A DNA stretch of 64,000 bases, taken from assembly GCA_951406725.2 (NCBI GenBank), contig OX597816.1:5580001-5644000 (forward strand), written 5' to 3'. A program made the translations under genes and the position numbers. This DNA is from Octopus vulgaris. Its lineage: Eukaryota. Positions 12,508 to 64,000 of this stretch are shown piece after piece (position 1 is the stretch's first letter; the number at the start of each line of letters is the position of its first letter). The notes beneath the pieces were generated by a model. That model ran no database searches. It had not been told where the DNA came from and saw nothing but the letters and a program-made list of their open reading frames with translations.

Positions 12508-13352
12508 TATTTCTTAATTGCTCATAAGGGGCTACACAGAGAGGGGACAAACAAGGACAGACAAACAGATTAAGTCGATTACATCGACCCCAGTGCGTGA
12601 CTGGTACTTAATTTATCGACCCCGAAAGGATGAAAGGCAAAGTCGACCTCGGCGGAATTTGAACTGAGAACGTAACGGCAGACGAAATACCTATTTCTTT
12701 ATTACCCACAAGGGGCTAAACACAGAGGGGACAAACAAGGACAGACATAGGTATTAATTCGATTACATCGACCCCAGTGCGTAACTGGTACTTAATTTAT
12801 CGACTCCGAAAGGATGAAAGGCAAAGTCCACCTCGGCGGAATTTGAACTCACAACGTAACGCAGACGAAATACCGCTAAGCATTTCGCCCTGCGTATTAA
12901 CGTTTCTTATTTCTTTATTGCCAACAAGGGGATAAACATAGAGGGGACAAACAAGGACAGACAAACGGATTGAGTCGATTACATCGACCCTAGTGCGTGA
13001 CTGGTACTTAATTTATCGACCCCGAAAGGATGAAAGGCAAAGTCGACCTCGGCGGAATTTGAACTCAGAACGTAACAGCAGACGAAATGCCTCTAAGTAT
13101 TTGGCCTGGCGTGATAACGTTTCTTATTTCTTTATTGCCAACAAGGGGATAAACATAGAGGGGACAAACAAGGACAGACAAACGGATTGAGTCGATTACA
13201 TCGACCCTAGTGCGTGACTGGTACTTAATTTATCGACCCCGAAAGGATGAAAGGCAAAGTCGACCTTGGCAGAATTTGAACTCAGAACGTAACGGCAGAC
13301 GAAATACCGCTAAGCATTTCGCCCGGCGTGCTAACGTTTCTGCCAGCTCGCC
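12508..13352 (-). mobile_element. head-to-tail tetramer of Meta-domain-like SINE (family C)
   Basis: Four units containing GCCTTTCATCCTTTCGGGGTCGATAAATTAAGTACCAG; only the unit ending at 13352 has a complete head. Confidence 0.9.
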
Positions 13353-31514: not shown

Positions 31515-31810
31515 CACGTCACGTGATCACGTGACCGACCAGACCATCAGATGTTGTTACACATCGCTGGTCACAATGCGTTCGCATTGTTTTAGCCTTC
31601 GAATGACGCCACCCCGCTGGCTAAGCGAGCAGGCCAACAGAAGAAAGAGTGGTGAAAGAGTACAGCAGGGATCCCCACCCCCTGTCAGAGCCTCGTGGCG
31701 CTTTTAGGTGTTTTCGCTCAATAAACACTCACAACGCCCGGTTTGGGAATCGAAACTGCGATCCTACAACCACGAGTCCGCTGCCCTAACCACTGAGCCA
31801 TTGCGCCTCC
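31515..31810 (-). mobile_element. SINE with family B head and a different 3' tail
   Basis: 5' ~175 nt match 4312-4695; 13-bp TSD TATTTCCCATTAT at 31502-31514 and 31812-31824. Confidence 0.9.
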
Positions 31811-31903
31811 ATATTTCCCATTATACTTCCTGCATTTGTCCCTTTCCAAAACAACTTCTTATATTGATCTCTGCTATTTCCTTCTACTTAGCTCTCTCAT
31901 GTC

Positions 31904-31951
31904 GTCTCTGATGATAGGATATCCATTATAACCCTGAAACAGCTGTAAGAT
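31904..31951 (+). ncRNA. minimal type I hammerhead motif (duplicated at 36418-36465)
   Basis: GTCT-CTGATGA-[TAGGATATCCATTATAACCCT]-GAAAC-AGCT-GTA-AGAT; stem II partly mismatched. Confidence 0.7.
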
Positions 31952-32363
31952 TACCCTTCTCCTTATAAAATACTCTAGAAATTTCACAATGTCTGGACAT
32001 ATCCTGTTTCTCTCTTCTATCTTTTCTCTTGTCAAAGAAAATATTTCTCCAGCGTTCACTATTTTACACTCGTTCTGGTCTAACTACTCTCCATGTTTGT
32101 TTTCGCTCTGCTTCCTTGTATGTCTCCACTGTCCTGTTTTTGTTCCCAACTTTGACCCTCCATAAATCCCAAATTTTATTTTGGTACTTATGGGAGCAAC
32201 TGTCTTCGAAGACTCATAGTGTCATTCACTGCTCGAAATGAGTAGACAGCCGACAACTGATGAAGGGTCGTTCTTTATGTTACTTGTCCTGTTTTCCATT
32301 CGTTTCTCTCGTTGTTTGCGTATTGAACTCATGTTTTCGTATTTCATGTTGTTTACTGTTGGT

Positions 32364-32735
32364 ATAAGAGATACAGAGTAGAGGTTCAAATCAGCCAGTC
32401 TACGATTGATACATACACATACGATTTAATTATGATAGATTTGTCCAATCTAAAACATATTTTAATACATTCGGTATATAAAGACAGAAATATAATAACA
32501 TTCGAATGCTAAAATATGCAATATTCTTTCTATATTTCATTATATTTATCTGTATACTCTCTTTTGTTTATATATCTATGTATTTATATGGCCATGCATA
32601 TTTTTAGCATTCATATATAATTTTATATTTCTATATTTTTATATTCCGAATGCATTAATATATGTTTTAGATTGGACAACTTTATAATAATTAAATCCAA
32701 TATATGTATGTATCAACCGTAGTCTGCCTGTATCT

Positions 32736-32740
<5 letters not shown>
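32364..32740. mobile_element. AT-rich foldback/MITE-like element (copy at 36878-37252)
   Basis: Ends ATAAGAGATACAG and CTGTATCTCTTAT; internal arms TTGTCCAATCTAAAACATAT and ATATGTTTTAGATTGGACAA. Confidence 0.75.
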
Positions 32741-32797
<57 letters not shown>

Positions 32798-33364
32798 TTA
32801 AATGAGAAAAAAAGTCAAATTGCCATTGCTATTCTTTCCGTAAATGGGCAATCCATAAACAACAAATGATATGCAATTCATACAATGTTATGCAATACAT
32901 ACGATATATATATGGATATATATGATACAAGTCTATTGTCCATTCATTGAATATTGTGAAACGGCCAAATAATGTCATCTGGAGATTCATTTGGACGACT
33001 GTACCTGAAAATCATGACACCTGGGTAAGCGAATGGTCCATGGAATTGTAATGTCAATTTGACAGCAGCTCTCCACATTGAAATAATTACTTTTATTATT
33101 CACTCTGCGGGGCTTTTAGGCCAGTTGGATCTTACCTTGGAGGTTTGCAGTGATGCCATTTATATCAATCGATGTCATACAAATCGCTATTTGATGTTGT
33201 AATCTTCGCTAGCCAGAATTCCGCATGATGTGCTAATGAAGTGAGAATTAAGAACATAATTATCCTAAATGGAGACGAGAACCAAGATTCCATGTTGTAC
33301 GCTTGAACAACAATAGTATTGTTGTAAAGACACCATTGGTAGTCTTATTAACACAAAAATAATG

Positions 33365-33420
<56 letters not shown>

Positions 33421-33704
33421 TAACAATTTTTGGCGTAATAAGATAAAAAACCAAAACAGATCTAATATCTACACAGCCTTGGTTTTTTATCTTATTACGC
33501 AAAAAATTCTTATATACACACGCTGACATAGAACCAACATTGAACCCCTTATTCGCAAAAATACCGAATCTGGAACTTAACTATGGTCTGTCTATAGCAC
33601 TTATTCTGCATTACCTGACACCTTTGGGTCTCAATGACACCATTATCTTCTTATATATATATGTATATATATATACAAACCTGACGATTCCTCCTTAACA
33701 CATC

Positions 33705-34190
33705 TTTCAGATACAAAAACACACACACATACATACACACTCTCACAAGACAATGATAAAAAGGAAATACAAACAATTTATTGAAAAGTGACATTTTGCC
33801 CCCCTTGGAGAAAACAGCTGGATTTACAATCACTATAAGCCAAGAATTATTATTGACAAACCTAGCAACTGCAAGGATATCAACATAATTTCTCTCCTTC
33901 TTCCTCCTTTCCCTCTTTTTCTTTAATACCCCTGTTAGATACAAAAACAGACACATACACGCACACACACACACACACTCTCTCTCTCTCTTTCTCTTTC
34001 TCACTAGACAATGATAAAAAAGAAATCCAGACAATTTTTTGAAAAGTGACATTTTGCCCCATCCTTGGAGTAAACAGCCTGACCAGCTACAAAGAGATCA
34101 ACAAAACAATTTTTTCTTCTTTCTCTCCCTTTTCTTCCTTTCCTTCTTTTTCTTTAACACAACTTTCGGATACAAAAACACACACACACA
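33705..34190. repeat. ~230-bp degenerate tandem repeat, about two copies plus a partial third (also 38180-38675)
   Basis: GATACAAAAAC at ~33710, 33938 and 34169; AGACAATGATAAAAA..TTGAAAAGTGACATTTTGCCCC twice. Confidence 0.8.
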
Positions 34191-34496
34191 CATGCACACA
34201 CACACACACATGCACACACACATATACACACACCCATTCATCACCCTTTTGTACTATCTTATATCCCTCCCCACCACTACACACTCAATAACACAATACA
34301 TATAGTCAAAGTTTCCCCAGAACTCCACTAGAATGGACAAAAACGCTAATATATGATATATGATATACGATGGATGATATATGATGTACAAAAACATGTA
34401 ATAAACAAATAAATATCTGTAAATATAAAACCATCCGAATTTCTGATTACCTCATTTCTTCTAATATATACAAATATATATATATATATGAATGAC

Positions 34497-34562
<66 letters not shown>

Positions 34563-35202
34563 TATATATGACATCTATAGAATTCTACCCATTACATATT
34601 TGTTAACCAGAAACTAAAGTAGGAAATATATTCCTGTTGTGAAGGTGCCGATCATCGGGCGAAACCGAAATCCGGTAGCTATGAATTGTTCACTGCAAGC
34701 ACGCGCACACATACGCGTGCACATACGCATACGCACGCGCACATACACACAAGCACACGCACATGCACGAACACAGACACACGCGCGCACACACGATCAA
34801 ATCAATTACCAAACGGTTACATACATAAACCAACGTGTATGAAAAGACGTCAGATACATTGTTCTCCTACGAAGCCATTTTGAAGAACTGCAGTGTTCTG
34901 TCGCAAGATACTATCTCGCAGCCGATATCAAGAATGACTTTAGCATTCAGCAACAGTATCCAGCAACCGGTCTGGAATATTAATGAGAAAATGTTGTATG
35001 ATATAAGACACTATACATCAACAGTATAAGCCATAACAGACAGACATTTTCCAAGCGGTAGAATTTTTACAGGCTATTGAACTTTTTTAAAGATTTTATC
35101 TTTTAAGGTGAGCGACGGCAGCATAAATATTATGTCTAATGACTTTAAAAGCCATCATGTAAAAATTGTGGAAATAATTTACAAAGAAGTACGTCAATAA
35201 GA

Positions 35203-35598
35203 TGTTACGAAATCACAGCTTTCCTCCAAAGAGTGAATTCTCAGACTGTATTGTGTACCAAAATATGGTCCCCATGAGCTGCACATGCATAAGAACCGTA
35301 GAACGTACGGAGCAGTCCTTTGGATGTGGCCAGTTTAAAAACATACTAGTTTGGACTAATTCTAAGACATGGAGTAACGTAGCTCCTCGACAAAAACTCG
35401 AGCCGGTTTCCACTTGCCGAGACTCATGCAAGCTCTTGGAAACCTGATCGGGAGATAACCGAGAAATTACACGTCCTAAACACCAAGTTAGAACTAACCA
35501 CATTTACAACTTAGTACAGATGTTTACGACCGACAAAGAGACCGAATGGAGACGCGGTTCGGGATGACAGACAACCCTATACAACTCCGACATTAACA
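35203..35598. mobile_element. possible solo LTR (copy at 39671-40067)
   Basis: ~396-bp higher-GC island bounded by TGTTA...TAACA; no clear TSD. Confidence 0.35.
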
Positions 35599-35806
35599 TA
35601 CAGAATCAATGAACTTGCATTCACCACTTTCACGTATTCACAAATTTGTACAGCCATAGCATAGAGGAATTTCGATTATCCCCACGTGGTGAGTTGTAAT
35701 GTATATAACATTAAAAAAGGAATATACGCACACTTACATAGTTTTAATATAACTTTTTATATATCGACCGGTTTCGCTATCGCTATTCATGATATAAGGA
35801 TATATA

Positions 35807-35873
<67 letters not shown>

Positions 35874-37845
35874 ATCAGATATATTCAATGAGAACAGGGT
35901 ATACGGAATTTCTGATAAGTGCTCTTCGTAGGGAAATGTCTAAAACCTTAAATGTATTTGGACATTTGATAAGAGAGATTATATATTATAAAGAGCAGGA
36001 AAAATTACATTAAAAATCATGACAGAAGATATACGTCCAAAATAATATTGTATTAATAGATAGACATATAAATATTTAAAGTATGATTACTTAAGAAGTT
36101 TAAACTATTGAAATAATCATACCTTATATATTTATATATATATATATATAATTAATCAATATAGGGTGGCAAAAAAAAATTTTGTAGAATTCTTTTGCCA
36201 CCAGCGGCCTAGTGGGAAAGAATTAAATAGTCATAAACCATTTTTAAGTTCAACATCACAATCAAGGAACGGCCATAATAGGCCATTCACCCACTAGAAA
36301 TAACAGCCAAAAAGCTTTAACCGCATATTTCCCATTATACTTCCTGCATTTGTCCCTTTCCAAAACATCTTCTTATATTGATCTCTGCTATTTCCTTCTA
36401 CTTAACTCTCTCATGTCGTCTCTGATGATAGGATATCCATTATAACCCTGAAACAGCTGTAAGATTACCCTTCTCCTTATAAAATCCTCTAGAAATTTCA
36501 CAATGTCTGGACGTATCCTGTTTCTCTCTTCTATTTTTTCTCTTGTCAAAGAAAATATTTCTCCAGCGTTCACTATTTTACACTCGTTCTGGTCTAACTA
36601 CTCTCCATGTTTGTTTTCGCTCTGCTTCCTTGTATGTCTCCACTGTCCTGTTTTTGTTCCCAACTTTGACCCTCCATAAATCCCAAATTTTATTTTGGTA
36701 TTCATGGGAGCAACTGTCTTCGAAGACTCATATTGTCATTCACTGCTCGAAATGAGTAGACAGCCGACAACTGATGAAGGGTCGTTCTTTATGTTACTTG
36801 TCCTGTTTTCCATTTGTTTCTCTCGTTGTTTGCGTATTGAACTCATGTTTTCGTATTTCATGTTGTTTACTGTTGGTATAAGAGATACAGAGTAGAGGTT
36901 CAAATCAGCCAGTCTACGATTGATACATACACATACGATTTAATTATGATAGATTTGTCCAATCTAAAACATATTTTAATACATTCGGTATATAAAGACA
37001 GAAATATAATAACATTCGAATGCTAAAATATGCAATATTCTTTCTATATTTCATTATATTTATCTGTATACTCTCTTTTGTTTATATATCTATGTATTTA
37101 TATGGCCATGCATATTTTTAGCATTCATATATAATTTTATATTTCTATATTTTTATATTCCGAATGCATTAATATATGTTTTAGATTGGACAACTTTATA
37201 ATAATTAAATCCATATATGTATGTATCAACCGTAGTCTGCCTGTATCTCTTATATATATATATATATAGTGATAATTTAAATGAGAAAAAAAGTCAAATT
37301 GCCATTGCTATTCTTTCCGTAAATGGGCAATCCATAAACAACAAATGATATGCAATTCATACAATGTTATGCAATACATACGATATATATATGGATATAT
37401 ATATGATACAAGTCTATTGTCCATTCATTGAATATTGTGAAACGGCCAAATAATGTCATCTGGAGATTCATTTGGACGACTGTACCTGAAAATCATGACA
37501 CCTGGGTAAGCGAATGGTCCATGGAATTGTAATGTCAATTTGACAGCAGCTCTCCACATTGAAATAATTACTTTTATTATTCACTCTGCGGGGCTTTTAG
37601 GCCAGTTGGATCTTACCTTGGAGGTTTGCAGTGATGCCATTTATATCAATCGATGTCATACAAATCGCTATTTGATGTTGTAATCTTCGCTAGCCAGAAT
37701 TCCGCATGATGTGCTAATGAAGTGAGAATTAAGAACATAATTATCCTAAATGGAGACGAGAACCAAGATTCCATGTTGTACGCTTGAACAACAATAGTAT
37801 TGTTGTAAAGACACCATTGGTAGTCTTATTAACACAAAAATAATG

Positions 37846-37896
<51 letters not shown>

Positions 37897-38981
37897 CAAT
37901 TTTTGGCGTAATAAGATAAAAAACCAAAACAGTTCTAATATCTACACAGCCTTGGTTTTTTATCTTATTACGCAAAAAATTCTTATATACACACGCTGAC
38001 ATAGAACCAACATTGAACCCCTTATTCGCAAAAATACCGAATCTGGAACTTAACTATGGTCTGTCTATAGCACTTATTCTGCATTATCTGACACCTTTGG
38101 GTCTCAATGACACCATTATCTTCTTATATATATATGTATATATATATACAAACCTGACGATTCCTCCTTAATACATCTTTCAGATACAAAAACACACACA
38201 CATACATACACACTCTCACAAGACAATGATAAAAAGGAAATACAAACAATTTATTGAAAAGTTACATTTTGCCCCCCTTGGAGAAAACAGATGGATTTAC
38301 AATCACTATAAGCCAAGAATTATTATTGACAAACCTTGCAACTGCAAGGATATCAACATAATTTCTCTCCTTCTTCCTCCTTTCCCTCTTTTTCTTTAAT
38401 ACCCCTGTTAGATACAAAAACAGACACATACTCGCACACACATACTCGCACACACACACACACTCTCTCTCTCTCTTTCTCTTTCTCACTAGACAATGAT
38501 AAAAAAGAAATCCAGACAATTTTTTGAAAAGTGACATTTTGCCCCATCCTTGGAGTAAACAGCCTGACCAGCTACAAAGAGATCAACAAAACAATTTTTT
38601 CTTCTTTCTCTCCCTTTTCTTCCTTTCCTTCTTTTTCTTTAACACAACTTTCGGATACAAAAACACACACACACACATGCACACACACACACACATGCAC
38701 ACACACATATACACACACCCATTCATCACCCTTTTGTACTATCTTATATCCCTCCCCACCACTACACACTCAATAACACAATACATATAGTCAAAGTTTC
38801 CCCAGAACTCCACTAGAATGGACAAAAACGCTAATATATGATATATGATATACGATGGATGATATATGATGTACAAAAACATGTAATAAACAAATAAATA
38901 TCTGTAAATATAAAACCATCCGAATTTCTGATTACCTCATTTCTTCTAATATATACAAATATATATATATATATGAATGAC

Positions 38982-39039
<58 letters not shown>

Positions 39040-40275
39040 CATCTATAGAATTCTACCCATTACATATTTGTTAACCAGAAACTAAAGTAGGAAATATATA
39101 CCTGTTGTGAAGGTGCCGATCATCGGGCGAAACCGAAATCCGGTAGCTATGAATTGTTCACTGCAAGCACGCGCACACATACGCGTGCACATACGCATAC
39201 GCACGCGCACATACACACAAGCACACGCACATGCACGAACACAGACACACGCGCGCACACACGATCAAATCAATTACCAAACGGTTACATACATAAACCA
39301 ACGTGTATGAAAAGACGTCAGATACATTGTTCTCCTACGAAGCCATTTTGAAGAACTGCAGTGTTCTGTCGCAAGATACTATCTCGCAGCCGATATCAAG
39401 AATGACTTTAGCATTCAGCAACAGTATCCAGCAACCGGTCTGGAATATTAATGAGAAAATGTTGTATGATATAAGACACTATACATCAACAGTATAAGCC
39501 ATAACAGACAGACATTTTCCAAGCGGTAGAATTTTTACAGGCTATTGAACTTTTTTAAAGATTTTATCTTTTAAGGTGAGCGACGGCAGCATAAATATTA
39601 TGTCTAATGACTTTAAAAGCCATCATGTAAAAATTGTGGAAATAATTTACAAAGAAGTACGTCAATAAGATGTTACGAAATCACAGCTTTCCTCCAAAGA
39701 GTGAATTCTCAGACTGTATTGTGTACCAAAATATGGTCCCCATGAGCAGCACATGCATAAGAACCGTAGAACGTACGGAGCAGGCCTTTGGATGTGGCCA
39801 GTTTAAAAACATACTAGTTTGGACTAACTCTGGAACATGGAGTAATGTAGCTCCTCGACAAAACCTCGAGCCGGTTTCCAATTGCCGAGAGACATGCAAG
39901 CTCTTGGAAACCTGATCGGGAGATAACCGAGACTTTACACGTCCTAAACACCAAGTTAGAACTAACCACATTTACAACTTAGTACAGATGTTTACGACCG
40001 ACAAAGAGACCGAATTGGAGACGCGGTTTGGGATGACAGACAACCCTATACAACTCCGACATTAACATACAGAATCAATGAACTTGCATTCACCACTTTC
40101 ACGTATTCACAAATTTGTACAGCCATAGCATAGAGGAATTTCGATTATCCACACGTGGTGAGTTGTAATGTATATAACATTAAAAAAGGAATATACGCAC
40201 ACTTACATAGTTTTAATATAATTTTTTATATATCGACCGGTTTCGCTATCGCTATTCATGATATAAGGATATATA

Positions 40276-40325
<50 letters not shown>

Positions 40326-40582
40326 TATATATATTTAATCAGATATATTCAATGAGAACAGGGTATACGGAATTTCTGATAAGTGCTCTTCGTAGGGAAA
40401 TGTCTAAAACCTTAAATGTATTTGGACATTTGATAAGAGAGATTATATATTATAAAGAGCAGGAAAAATTACATTAAAAATCATGACAGAAGATATACGT
40501 CCAAAATAATATTGTATTAATAGATAGACATATAAATATTTAAAGTATGATTACTTAAGAAGTTTAAACTATTGAAATAATC

Positions 40583-40629
<47 letters not shown>

Positions 40630-61870: not shown

Positions 61871-62451
61871 CTTTTCTACTCTAGGCACTAGGCCCGAATT
61901 TTGGGGGAGGTGATTAAGTCGATTAGACGACCCCAATAGGCAATCGGTACTTAATTTATCGAGCTCAAATTGATGAAAAGCAAAGTCGACCTCGGCGGAA
62001 TTTGAACTCAGAACGTAAAGACAGACGAAATAACTATTTCTTTACTACCCACAAGGGGCTAAACAAAGAAGGGACAAACAAGGCCAGACACACGGATTAA
62101 GTCGATTATATCGACCCCAGTGCGTAACTGATACTTATTTAATTGACCCCAAAGGATGAAAGGCAAAGTCGACATCGGCGGAATTTGAACTCAGAACGCA
62201 GCGGCAGACGAAATACCTATTTCCTTACTACCCACAAGGGGCTAAACGCAGAGAGGACAAACAAGGACAAAGAAAGGCATTAAGTCGATTATATCGACAC
62301 CAGTGCGTAACTGGTACTTAATTTATCGACTACGAAAGGATGAAAGGCAAAGTCGACCTCGGCGGAATTTGAACTCAGAACATAAAGACAGCTGAAATAC
62401 TGTTAAACATTTCGCCCGGCGTTCTAACGTTTCTGCCAGCTCGCCGCCTTG
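61871..62451 (-). mobile_element. family C SINE trimer
   Basis: Three cores between TSD copies at 61853-61870 and 62452-62469. Confidence 0.88.
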
Positions 62452-62509: not shown

Positions 62510-62550
<41 letters not shown>

Positions 62551-62552
62551 GC

Positions 62553-62617
<65 letters not shown>

Positions 62618-62639
62618 TATATATATGTATATATATATG

Positions 62640-62720
<81 letters not shown>

Positions 62721-62722
<2 letters not shown>

Positions 62723-63951
62723 CAACAAAGTTTTTTAGCTATTTCTAATACTTAAAGAAAATTTCTCTCAGATAGTGTTTACTCAGAATAACCCACGAAG
62801 GTATGGGGGTAAAAAACATTAAAAAAAAAAATCACAAGTGCAAAGATTATTTGAGAACGTTACGTTTCTAGATCAGCCAAATAAAATTCGACATTTCTTT
62901 CGTCAGCCCAAAATTTCTTAATTTGGATTTGGAAACACTGAAAGTAGGAACATACCCTTTTGGCGACTTAACACCTCAGACGACCCGCTCAAACTGACAG
63001 TGCCAACAAATTCAAAATATGCAAGCGAAGAATTCCTGTTCTCCCTTTCCACCCACGTGGGCTAAACTAGCAAACACCATATTTTAGCGGTGAAAACCGA
63101 GGCAATAAACAGAGAGAAATGAATTATAATTTCAACAATTGAGGGTAAAATTAATTAGTTAATTAATCAATTTCACCAAGTATTCAGTATGTAAAAGGAC
63201 CATTTAAGGCGAATTCAAAATATTACATTAATATAAAAGGGCTTAGTAAAATAAATTACTTTGCCACATACTGAACTCATTAGAAATAGCAGCCAAAAAA
63301 GTTTTTTAGCTATTTCTAATACTTAAAGAAAATTTCTCTCAGATAGTGTTTACTCAGAATAACCCACGAAGGTATGGGGGTAAAAAACATTAAAAAATCA
63401 CAAGTGCAATCCTTTTACATACTGAATACTTGGTGAAATTGATTAATTAACTAATTAATTTTACCCTCAATTGTTGAAATTATAATTCATTTCTCTGTTT
63501 ATTGCCTCGGTTTTCACCGCTAAAATATGGTGTTTGCTAGTTTAGCCCACGTGGGTGGAAAGGGAGAACAGGAATTCTTCGCTTGCATATTTTGAATTTG
63601 TTGGCACTGTCAGTTTGAACGGGTCGTCTGAGGTGTTAAGTCGCCAAAAGGGTATGTTCCTACTTTCAGTGTTTCCAAATCCAAATTAAGAAATTTTGGG
63701 CTGACGAAAGAAATGTCGAATTTTATTTGGCTGATCTAGAAACGTAACATTCTCAAATAATCTTTGCACTTGTGATTTTTTAATGTTTTTTACCCCCATA
63801 CCTTCGTGGGTTATTCTGAGTAAACACTATCTGAGAGAAATTTTCTTTAAGTATTAGAAATAGCTAAAAAACTTTTTTGGCTGCTATTTCTAATGAGTTC
63901 AGTATGTGGCAAAGTAATTTATTTTACTAAGCCCTTTTATATTAATGTAAT
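62721..63951. mobile_element. non-coding hammerhead-containing element (~571-bp monomer, tandem plus inverted), retrozyme or non-autonomous Penelope-like
   Basis: Direct repeat 62730-62843 = 63301-63409. 63410-63951 is the reverse complement of the permuted monomer. Flanked on both sides by (TA)n; no ORF. Confidence 0.8.
62850..62913 (-). ncRNA. type I hammerhead ribozyme with extended stem II (inverted copy 63695-63756 +)
   Basis: TTTGGG-CTGACGA-A-AGA-AAT-GTCGAAT-TTT-ATTTGGC-TGA-TCT-A-GAAAC-G-TAA-C-GTT-CTCAAA: stems I, II and III all pair. Confidence 0.72.
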
Positions 63952-63953
63952 TT

Positions 63954-64000
<47 letters not shown>

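What the first reader, a model, noticed from the sequence alone, without database searches (positions are those of the whole stretch)
62721..63951. Circularly permuted ~571-nt non-coding monomer with one hammerhead per unit: candidate retrozyme or circular-RNA retroelement
Seen: the left arm (62727-63409) is ~1.2 head-to-tail copies with period 571. The right arm (63410-63951) is an almost complete inverted monomer that begins at a different point and reads across the left arm's repeat junction, so the template was a multimer or a circle. Each monomer has one type I hammerhead (62850-62913 minus, intact GUU site; 63695-63756 plus, GTT changed to ATT). The 5' end of the left arm lies only 12 nt downstream of the position equivalent to the predicted cleavage site. 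A hairpin TTAGAAATAGC...GCTATTTCTAA sits at 63280-63319. There is no ORF, the arms are nearly identical (young), and both 3' ends abut (TA)n. Established: Penelope-like elements carry minimal hammerheads and make inverted 5' insertions; animal non-LTR retrozymes are tandem hammerhead repeats processed to circular RNAs. Inference: a possibly undescribed self-cleaving, (TA)n-targeted RNA element mobilised by a Penelope-type RT.
Basis: partly seen in the sequence, partly recalled or inferred. Interest (0 to 1): 0.88.

Follow-up and report, generated by a model that had tools for sequence, protein, structure and literature searches.

The report
Octopus hammerhead retrozyme with Penelope-type insertions
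This is one copy of a 566-base non-coding mobile repeat of an octopus that carries a well-conserved hammerhead ribozyme motif and has been pasted into TA repeats with two fixed end points, one on each side, so it is likely a 'retrozyme' copied by a Penelope-type reverse transcriptase, possibly from a circular RNA.

Summary
The locus is one insertion of a dispersed, ORF-free repeat (true period about 566; 198 exact matches to its hammerhead half) in an octopus genome. It belongs to a larger superfamily of 525-600-nt units (1,890 matches to a shared motif). The type I hammerhead covaries across families although Rfam misses it. 109 of 113 copy ends lie at two fixed internal sites 94 nt apart, nearly always in (TA)n. 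Head-to-head inverted insertions use one site on each side: 38 of 39 classifiable cases, then 15 of 15 held-out. This is the Penelope 'tail' signature, about three times the usual length. Arms read through the predicted cut and arrays are internally uniform, which favours but does not prove a circular template. An excess of 5' ends at the cut did not replicate. No ORF-bearing partner was found. Cleavage, expression and circles are untested. Verdict: new cephalopod member of the known animal non-LTR retrozymes, with unusually direct insertion evidence for Penelope-type mobilisation. The scan noted similar (ribozyme-free) TA-targeted units in other genomes.

The parts
62512..62720 (.). (TA)n array, left target flank
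62721..63409 (-). Left arm: unit positions 13-566, then 1 to about 124 (1 = base after the predicted hammerhead cut), then a short cap from end site S2
62721..62730 (-). 8-10 nt identical to end site S2, joined through a TT microhomology (early template jump or later deletion); makes this arm an S2-type end
   Evidence: mechanism inferred
62850..62912 (-). Type I hammerhead motif: stem I UUUGGG/CUCAAA, core CUGACGA and GAAA, near-palindromic stem III, GUU site; predicted cut between 62856 and 62855
   Evidence: activity untested
63125..63138 (-). End site S2 (unit about 292-297), one of two fixed 3' ends of the family; predicted RT start site
63144..63177 (-). Conserved hairpin just 5' of S2
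63183..63275 (-). Conserved 9-bp helix (63275-63267 with 63191-63183) whose loop holds end site S1; one compensatory pair across families
63219..63231 (-). End site S1 (unit about 190-205), the other fixed 3' end; predicted RT start site
63280..63319 (-). Hairpin TTAGAAATAGC...GCTATTTCTAA; its 3' strand is the most conserved motif of the superfamily
63409..63410 (.). Head-to-head inversion junction, no gap or overlap
63410..63954 (+). Right arm: unit positions about 224-566, then 1 to about 205, ending at S1
63695..63757 (+). Second hammerhead motif, GTT changed to ATT (63749-63751)
63954..64000 (.). (TA)n array, right target flank (runs a little past the window)

Best explanation
This is an insertion of a 566-nt non-coding, hammerhead-bearing mobile repeat (a non-LTR retrozyme) that is likely copied into (TA)n by a Penelope-like RT-endonuclease acting in trans, probably from a monomeric circular or end-paired RNA. 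Shown: dispersed young copies, no ORF, a covarying type I hammerhead in each unit, (TA)n targets, two fixed 3' ends (S1, S2), one of each in inverted insertions, and arms that run through the unit junction for up to 4.3 units. Inferred: (1) a multimeric transcript is cut by the hammerheads, probably as dimers, and the monomer closes; (2) a Penelope protein, probably a dimer, binds the conserved structured region of about 200 nt downstream of the cut; (3) it nicks both strands of a (TA)n array and starts one cDNA at S1 and the other at S2; (4) the cDNAs run round the template and are joined head to head (inverted insertion) or one is captured directly (single arm). Odds: Penelope-mobilised non-autonomous element 0.9; one start site per strand 0.75; monomeric circular or end-paired template 0.6; hammerhead active in vivo 0.65.
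For: Copies: 163 matches from only 40 of 2,565 candidates scored; 198 exact hammerhead-half matches, control 0. Ends: 109 of 113 outer ends of 70 insertions lie at S1 (50) or S2 (59), and 103 of 113 have TA-rich flanks. Inversions: of 43, 38 are S1+S2, 1 is S2+S2 and 4 have an unclassifiable end (P=1.5e-10). Held-out 34 loci taken in genome order: of 18 two-arm inversions, 15 are S1+S2, none is concordant and 3 are unclassifiable (counted by eye). Sister families: 37 of 42 by a crude rule. A Penelope protein in vitro nicks and extends both strands, starts RT at two internal RNA sites that define the genomic tail, and is a predicted dimer (PMC11167929). An autonomous PLE family of this genome shows the same grammar with a 33-nt tail. 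Hammerhead: 91.7% of cells paired, 9 of 13 pairs change on both sides, including C3-G8 to U3-A8; slid controls 20-41%. Template: 71 of 94 arms read through the cut, 50 exceed one unit (set biased to long copies); only 5 of 3,078 positions covered by 4 or more copies carry a repeated minority allele; private variants occur in 4 of 4 copies across both arms in L007, L220 and L228. The circular fold of the unit has z=-6.4 against 25 shuffles.
Against: No autonomous element carrying this terminal region was found, so the partner is inferred. Cleavage is untested. The site is GUU, stem II opens with an A-A mismatch, stem III has 2-3 bp, the minimum-energy fold is not the active fold (-9.2 against -6.8 kcal/mol), and Rfam gives no hammerhead hit. 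Li et al. saw cleavage in only 1 of 9 predicted retrozymes, and Frangieh et al. found the hammerhead dispensable for insertion in vitro and no strand difference in RT start sites. Within-insertion divergence was lower than the distance to the nearest other insertion in only 21 of 43 cases (Wilcoxon P=1.0). Some variants are arm- or unit-specific (L024, L203, L217, L228). The excess of 5' ends at the cut (9 stops against 103 crossings, P=0.011; scan P=0.19) did not replicate (1 of 53 held-out arms).
Confidence: 0.72

Rival explanations
1. Same element and same Penelope machinery, but the template is a linear multimeric read-through transcript. The hammerhead is weak or dispensable and no circle forms; arrays are renewed by template jumps or later tandem duplication.
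For: The hammerhead was not needed for insertion in vitro (PMC11167929). Weak features of this motif. Arm- or unit-specific variants in 4 insertions. No significant within-versus-between contrast.
Against: Seamless periods with no scar at S1 or S2 inside arrays. Private variants in all copies of both arms. Hammerhead covariation kept across deeply diverged families implies selection for the fold. A linear template can only shorten with each round (inference).
Confidence: 0.2
2. The unit is only the pseudo-LTR of an autonomous Penelope element, and the arrays are truncated insertions of that element.
For: Li et al. report that Xenopus retrozymes match PLE pLTRs. The terminal grammar (hammerhead, tail, TA ends) is that of a pLTR. 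Genome searches scored only the best candidates, so a rare parent could be missed.
Against: All measured periods are 410-605 nt, none of kilobase size. No PLE ORF and no shared upstream flank in 34 held-out loci. The PLE ORFs seen near superfamily copies were separated from them by TA arrays in the cases inspected (L038, L057, L075, L295). No module in 50 GIY-YIG loci except such separate insertions, or in 6 Naiad loci.
Confidence: 0.06
3. Assembly foldback, or a DNA-level satellite or inverted duplication with a chance hammerhead match.
For: The arms are 98% alike and lie between long TA runs.
Against: 61 inversions with different junctions on many contigs follow one end rule. The arms differ by substitutions and indels. 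Hammerhead covariation.
Confidence: 0.01

Closest known systems
Animal non-LTR retrozymes (Cervera and de la Pena 2020, PMC7229834; Li, Clavereau and Pollet 2026, bioRxiv 10.64898/2026.07.22.740005)
   Same: Non-coding head-to-tail repeats with one type I hammerhead per unit, low GC (33%), dispersed dimers and multimers; Penelope mobilisation and a circular template are proposed there.
   Different: The unit is longer than the 170-400 nt RNAs of the 2020 paper, though inside the 51-972 bp range of the 2026 preprint. No cephalopod case or insertion-end analysis appears in the passages read. Here the Penelope link rests on insertion signatures, and no homologous pLTR parent was found, whereas 24 of 57 Xenopus families matched known elements, nearly all PLEs.
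Terminal grammar of endonuclease-bearing Penelope-like elements: pLTR, inverted pLTR and tail (PMC8557442, PMC3846280, PMC11167929)
   Same: 5' truncation, head-to-head inversions, microsatellite targets, two alternative 3' ends with the tail at one end of an inverted insertion, hammerhead upstream of the RT start sites.
   Different: No ORF. The tail is 94 nt (about 100 in sister families) against 30-40 nt. The tail lies in a conserved structured region. The one-of-each rule is counted here (53 of 54 classifiable inversions) rather than described as optional.
Non-autonomous Chlamys PLEs such as MRC1 (PMC8557442, passage)
   Same: Non-coding PLE dependants that form multicopy head-to-tail insertions.
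   Different: Those generally share 3' sequence with an autonomous family, and that clade is reported to lack canonical hammerheads.
Minimal and palindromic-helix-III hammerheads of PLE pLTRs (PMC4209133)
   Same: Short helix III with palindromic loop, extra base after A9, likely dimeric activity.
   Different: Here helix I has 6 bp and helix II is long; the youngest subfamily has a 1-nt insertion that makes the palindrome imperfect.

Membership tests
Animal non-LTR retrozyme | Head-to-tail repeats of a short non-coding unit | tested here: met
   Period 566, arms up to 2,436 nt, no frame over 47 codons in the window arms
Animal non-LTR retrozyme | Type I hammerhead motif in each unit | tested here: met
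   Descriptor and covariation; Rfam model does not hit
Animal non-LTR retrozyme | Dispersed copies, no LTR-type ends | tested here: met
   70 plus 34 insertions on many contigs, 5' truncated
Animal non-LTR retrozyme | Self-cleavage of the transcript | not testable with these tools
   Only indirect: the excess of 5' ends at the cut did not replicate
Animal non-LTR retrozyme | Accumulation as monomeric linear and circular RNA | tested here: inconclusive
   No holder on record as RNA, contigs only; array uniformity is indirect
Penelope-like element, insertion signature | Two alternative 3' ends (tail), tail at one end of inverted insertions | tested here: met
   38 of 39 and 15 of 15 classifiable inversions
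Penelope-like element, insertion signature | 5' truncation, head-to-head inversion, microsatellite target | tested here: met
   43 of 70 insertions inverted; 103 of 113 ends in TA-rich flank
Autonomous Penelope-like element | ORF with RT and GIY-YIG endonuclease | tested here: not met
   None in the unit or the window; none contiguous in the loci examined
Non-autonomous derivative of a named PLE family | Terminal sequence shared with an autonomous family | tested here: inconclusive
   No match to the PLE families sampled or to octopus Naiad ends; the genome was not searched exhaustively

The most novel reading that the evidence does not exclude
An old, self-standing lineage of circular ribozyme RNAs in octopus, with no coding parent left, that has kept a 510-600-nt size and a structured two-site loading region. 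A dimeric Penelope protein uses this region to start one cDNA per nicked strand and rolls round the circle. That would be direct genomic evidence for rolling-circle retrotransposition of animal retrozymes and a compact substrate for explaining Penelope tandem and inverted insertions.
Probability: 0.35. Interest if true: 0.75.

Novelty: new member of a known kind. Interest (0 to 1): 0.52.

Why it matters
How animal retrozymes move, and how Penelope elements make their tandem, inverted and tailed insertions, are stated as open in the papers read (PMC7229834, PMC8557442, PMC11167929 and the 2026 preprint). This family ties the two by its insertion ends rather than by co-occurrence or pLTR trees. 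It offers a 566-nt RNA with mapped candidate start sites, a covarying fold and sister families as controls, so both questions can be tested in vitro. The class itself is known, so the finding is a useful model rather than a new kind of system.

Tried and rejected
Rfam: no hammerhead hit at E<=1 in 4 kb or E<=10 in 96 nt. RNA: no RNA holder listed on record. Four guessed-RNA contig sets cover parts of the unit and some end in TA at S2, but they cannot show strand, ends, level or circles, so they are not used as evidence. Partner search: GIY-YIG family search (148 matches of 150 scored from 6,136 candidates), 50 loci from it, four sister-family or motif searches, 20 wider loci, 34 held-out loci and octopus Naiad ends gave no ORF-bearing element with this terminal region. 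A profile search of the genome with a PLE alignment was not available, so divergent PLE families were only sampled. 5'-end enrichment at the cut: 11 of 112 raw, 9 stops after curation of 6 over-extended ends on the 60 simple insertions, not replicated; rejected as support. The within-versus-nearest divergence test was uninformative. Target-site duplications cannot be read inside (TA)n. In alignment A2 the row F306 was cut wrongly and lacks its hammerhead. The scan's own notes on this genome were empty.

Full report
Observation. The window holds two head-to-head arms, 62721-63409 (minus) and 63410-63954 (plus), between (TA)n arrays. They are 97.9% alike over 477 columns. The right arm begins at another point of the unit and reads through the left arm's repeat junction. 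No frame over 47 codons lies in the arms. The period of 571 includes a 5-nt A-run expansion; a natural three-unit copy gives 566. Each arm has a type I hammerhead motif, and the right one carries GTT to ATT. Below, unit position 1 is the base after the predicted cut (window 62855).

Host and copy number. The genome has 2.8 Gb in 227 contigs. A 20-nt motif from the published octopus Naiad consensus matches 89 times with control 0, so the host is an octopus. The unit gave 163 matches from only 40 of 2,565 candidates scored, and the 3' half of its hammerhead matches exactly 198 times with control 0. I mapped 70 distinct insertions found with three queries. That set is ranked by best match and is biased towards long, young copies. 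I then took 34 more in genome order as a held-out set.

Ends. Of 113 outer ends, 50 lie at S1 (about 203), 59 at S2 (about 297) and 4 elsewhere; 103 of 113 have TA-rich flanks. Of 43 inverted insertions, 38 pair S1 with S2, one pairs S2 with S2 (L019) and four have an unclassifiable end (P=1.5e-10 against even odds). One of these four is the window itself, whose left arm ends in 8-10 nt of S2 sequence. In the held-out set, 15 of 18 two-arm inversions are S1+S2, none is concordant and three have an unclassifiable end (counted by eye). Single-arm copies of the first set use either site (16 S2, 11 S1). Sister families give 37 of 42 by a cruder automatic rule, with three duplicate or mixed loci dropped. 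The many different junctions rule out an assembly foldback.

Superfamily. Chance hits beside PLE loci revealed related families with units of about 591, 601, 555 and 525 nt. The shared motif matches 1,890 times with control 0. From the hammerhead to S2 they align at 59% mean column identity (one row was cut wrongly). The predicted cut lies 114-132 nt before the motif in the copies that the descriptor found within its 105-140 window.

Hammerhead. Rfam gives no hit. On 13 variants, however, 91.7% of cells pair, 9 of 13 pairs change on both sides (5 of 6 in stem I, and C3-G8 to U3-A8), 0 of 500 shuffles reach the covariation score, and slid controls pair 20-41%. The structure was drawn from these sequences, so the slid control leans in its favour. 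The descriptor gave 1 hit in shuffled loci of 0.93 Mb. Stem III is a palindrome in older copies and a palindrome with one central mismatch in the window's subfamily; predicted dimer energies are -12.2 and -9.0 kcal/mol. This matches the dimer-type motifs described in PMC4209133 (passages). Against high activity: a GUU site, an A-A mismatch opening stem II, and a minimum-energy fold that is not the active one.

Template. 71 of 94 arms in 60 simple insertions read through the cut, 50 exceed one unit and the longest is 2,436 nt. A cut linear monomer alone could give at most 203 or 297 nt (inference). Arrays are uniform: 5 of 3,078 positions covered by four or more copies carry a repeated minority allele. 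Leaving out L203 (a distinct subfamily), 15 private variants are shared by all copies of their insertion, three of them in 4 of 4 copies across both arms, against 2 partly shared. Against this, within-insertion divergence was below the nearest-neighbour distance in only 21 of 43 cases, and L024, L203, L217 and L228 show arm- or unit-specific variants. A circle, or a cut monomer held shut by stem I, fits best, but linear multimers are not excluded.

Partner. The genome has several endonuclease-bearing PLE families. One is young and intact, ends in (TA)n, and has a hammerhead-like motif and a 33-nt tail. None of those sampled shares the terminal region, nor do six Naiad loci. No PLE ORF or shared upstream flank was found at the 34 held-out loci, and no period of kilobase size was seen. 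The search was not exhaustive.

Mechanism. Frangieh et al. (PMC11167929, parts 1-2 of 4 read) show that a Penelope protein nicks and extends both strands of AT-rich DNA and starts at two internal RNA sites that bound the genomic tail. They predict a dimer and found no strand preference in vitro. The tail is described as optional at one of the inverted ends (PMC3846280 and PMC8557442, passages). The near-strict one-of-each rule here fits one complex starting one cDNA per strand at different sites; this step is inferred.

Comparison and novelty. Animal non-LTR retrozymes are described in PMC7229834 (passages and Discussion). The 2026 preprint (parts 1-3 of 5 read; its supplements are closed and could list more species) links them to PLE pLTRs and leaves the mechanism open. 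Six literature searches listed no paper on octopus retrozymes; the giant squid genome paper only counts 235 hammerhead matches (passage), and PMC8969392 gave general PLE curation notes (passages). Repbase and Dfam could not be searched. The scan's earlier notes report similar TA-targeted tandem units without a ribozyme in other genomes (unchecked). Verdict: a real, new member of a known kind, with mechanistically useful features; interest 0.52.

Noticed in passing
L038:2600-2786, L075:5150-5345, L057:292-535 and L271-L320: Sister families of the same superfamily, with units of about 591, 601, 555 and 525 nt, homologous hammerheads with different stem I pairs, the same terminal region and the same two-end habit; 1,890 exact matches to the shared motif.
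   Followed up: yes
L061-L080: A young, abundant autonomous Penelope-like family: 781-codon RT plus GIY-YIG frame, an upstream frame of up to 479 codons, a hammerhead-like motif with U3-A8, a 33-nt tail and (TA)n ends. No DNA similarity to the unit; a candidate partner by age and target only.
   Followed up: partly
loci L001-L170: More than a dozen further distinct type I hammerhead motifs, most with palindromic stem III, in 0.93 Mb of partly overlapping loci; the genome is rich in them.
   Followed up: no
window 31901-31954 and 36415-36468: Two identical type I hammerhead-like motifs of another family (4-bp stem I), inside a local duplication.
   Followed up: no
window 31810-36150 and 36324-40614: A tandem duplication of about 4.5 kb, 98-99% alike.
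   Followed up: no
window 61912-62399 and 12508-13341: Tandem arrays of a 183-217-nt repeat that looks, from recall, like a known octopus SINE.
   Followed up: no
P0030, P0042, P0061: Close relatives of the PLE protein are labelled as bacterial symbiont proteins of bivalves, probably host DNA in those assemblies.
   Followed up: no
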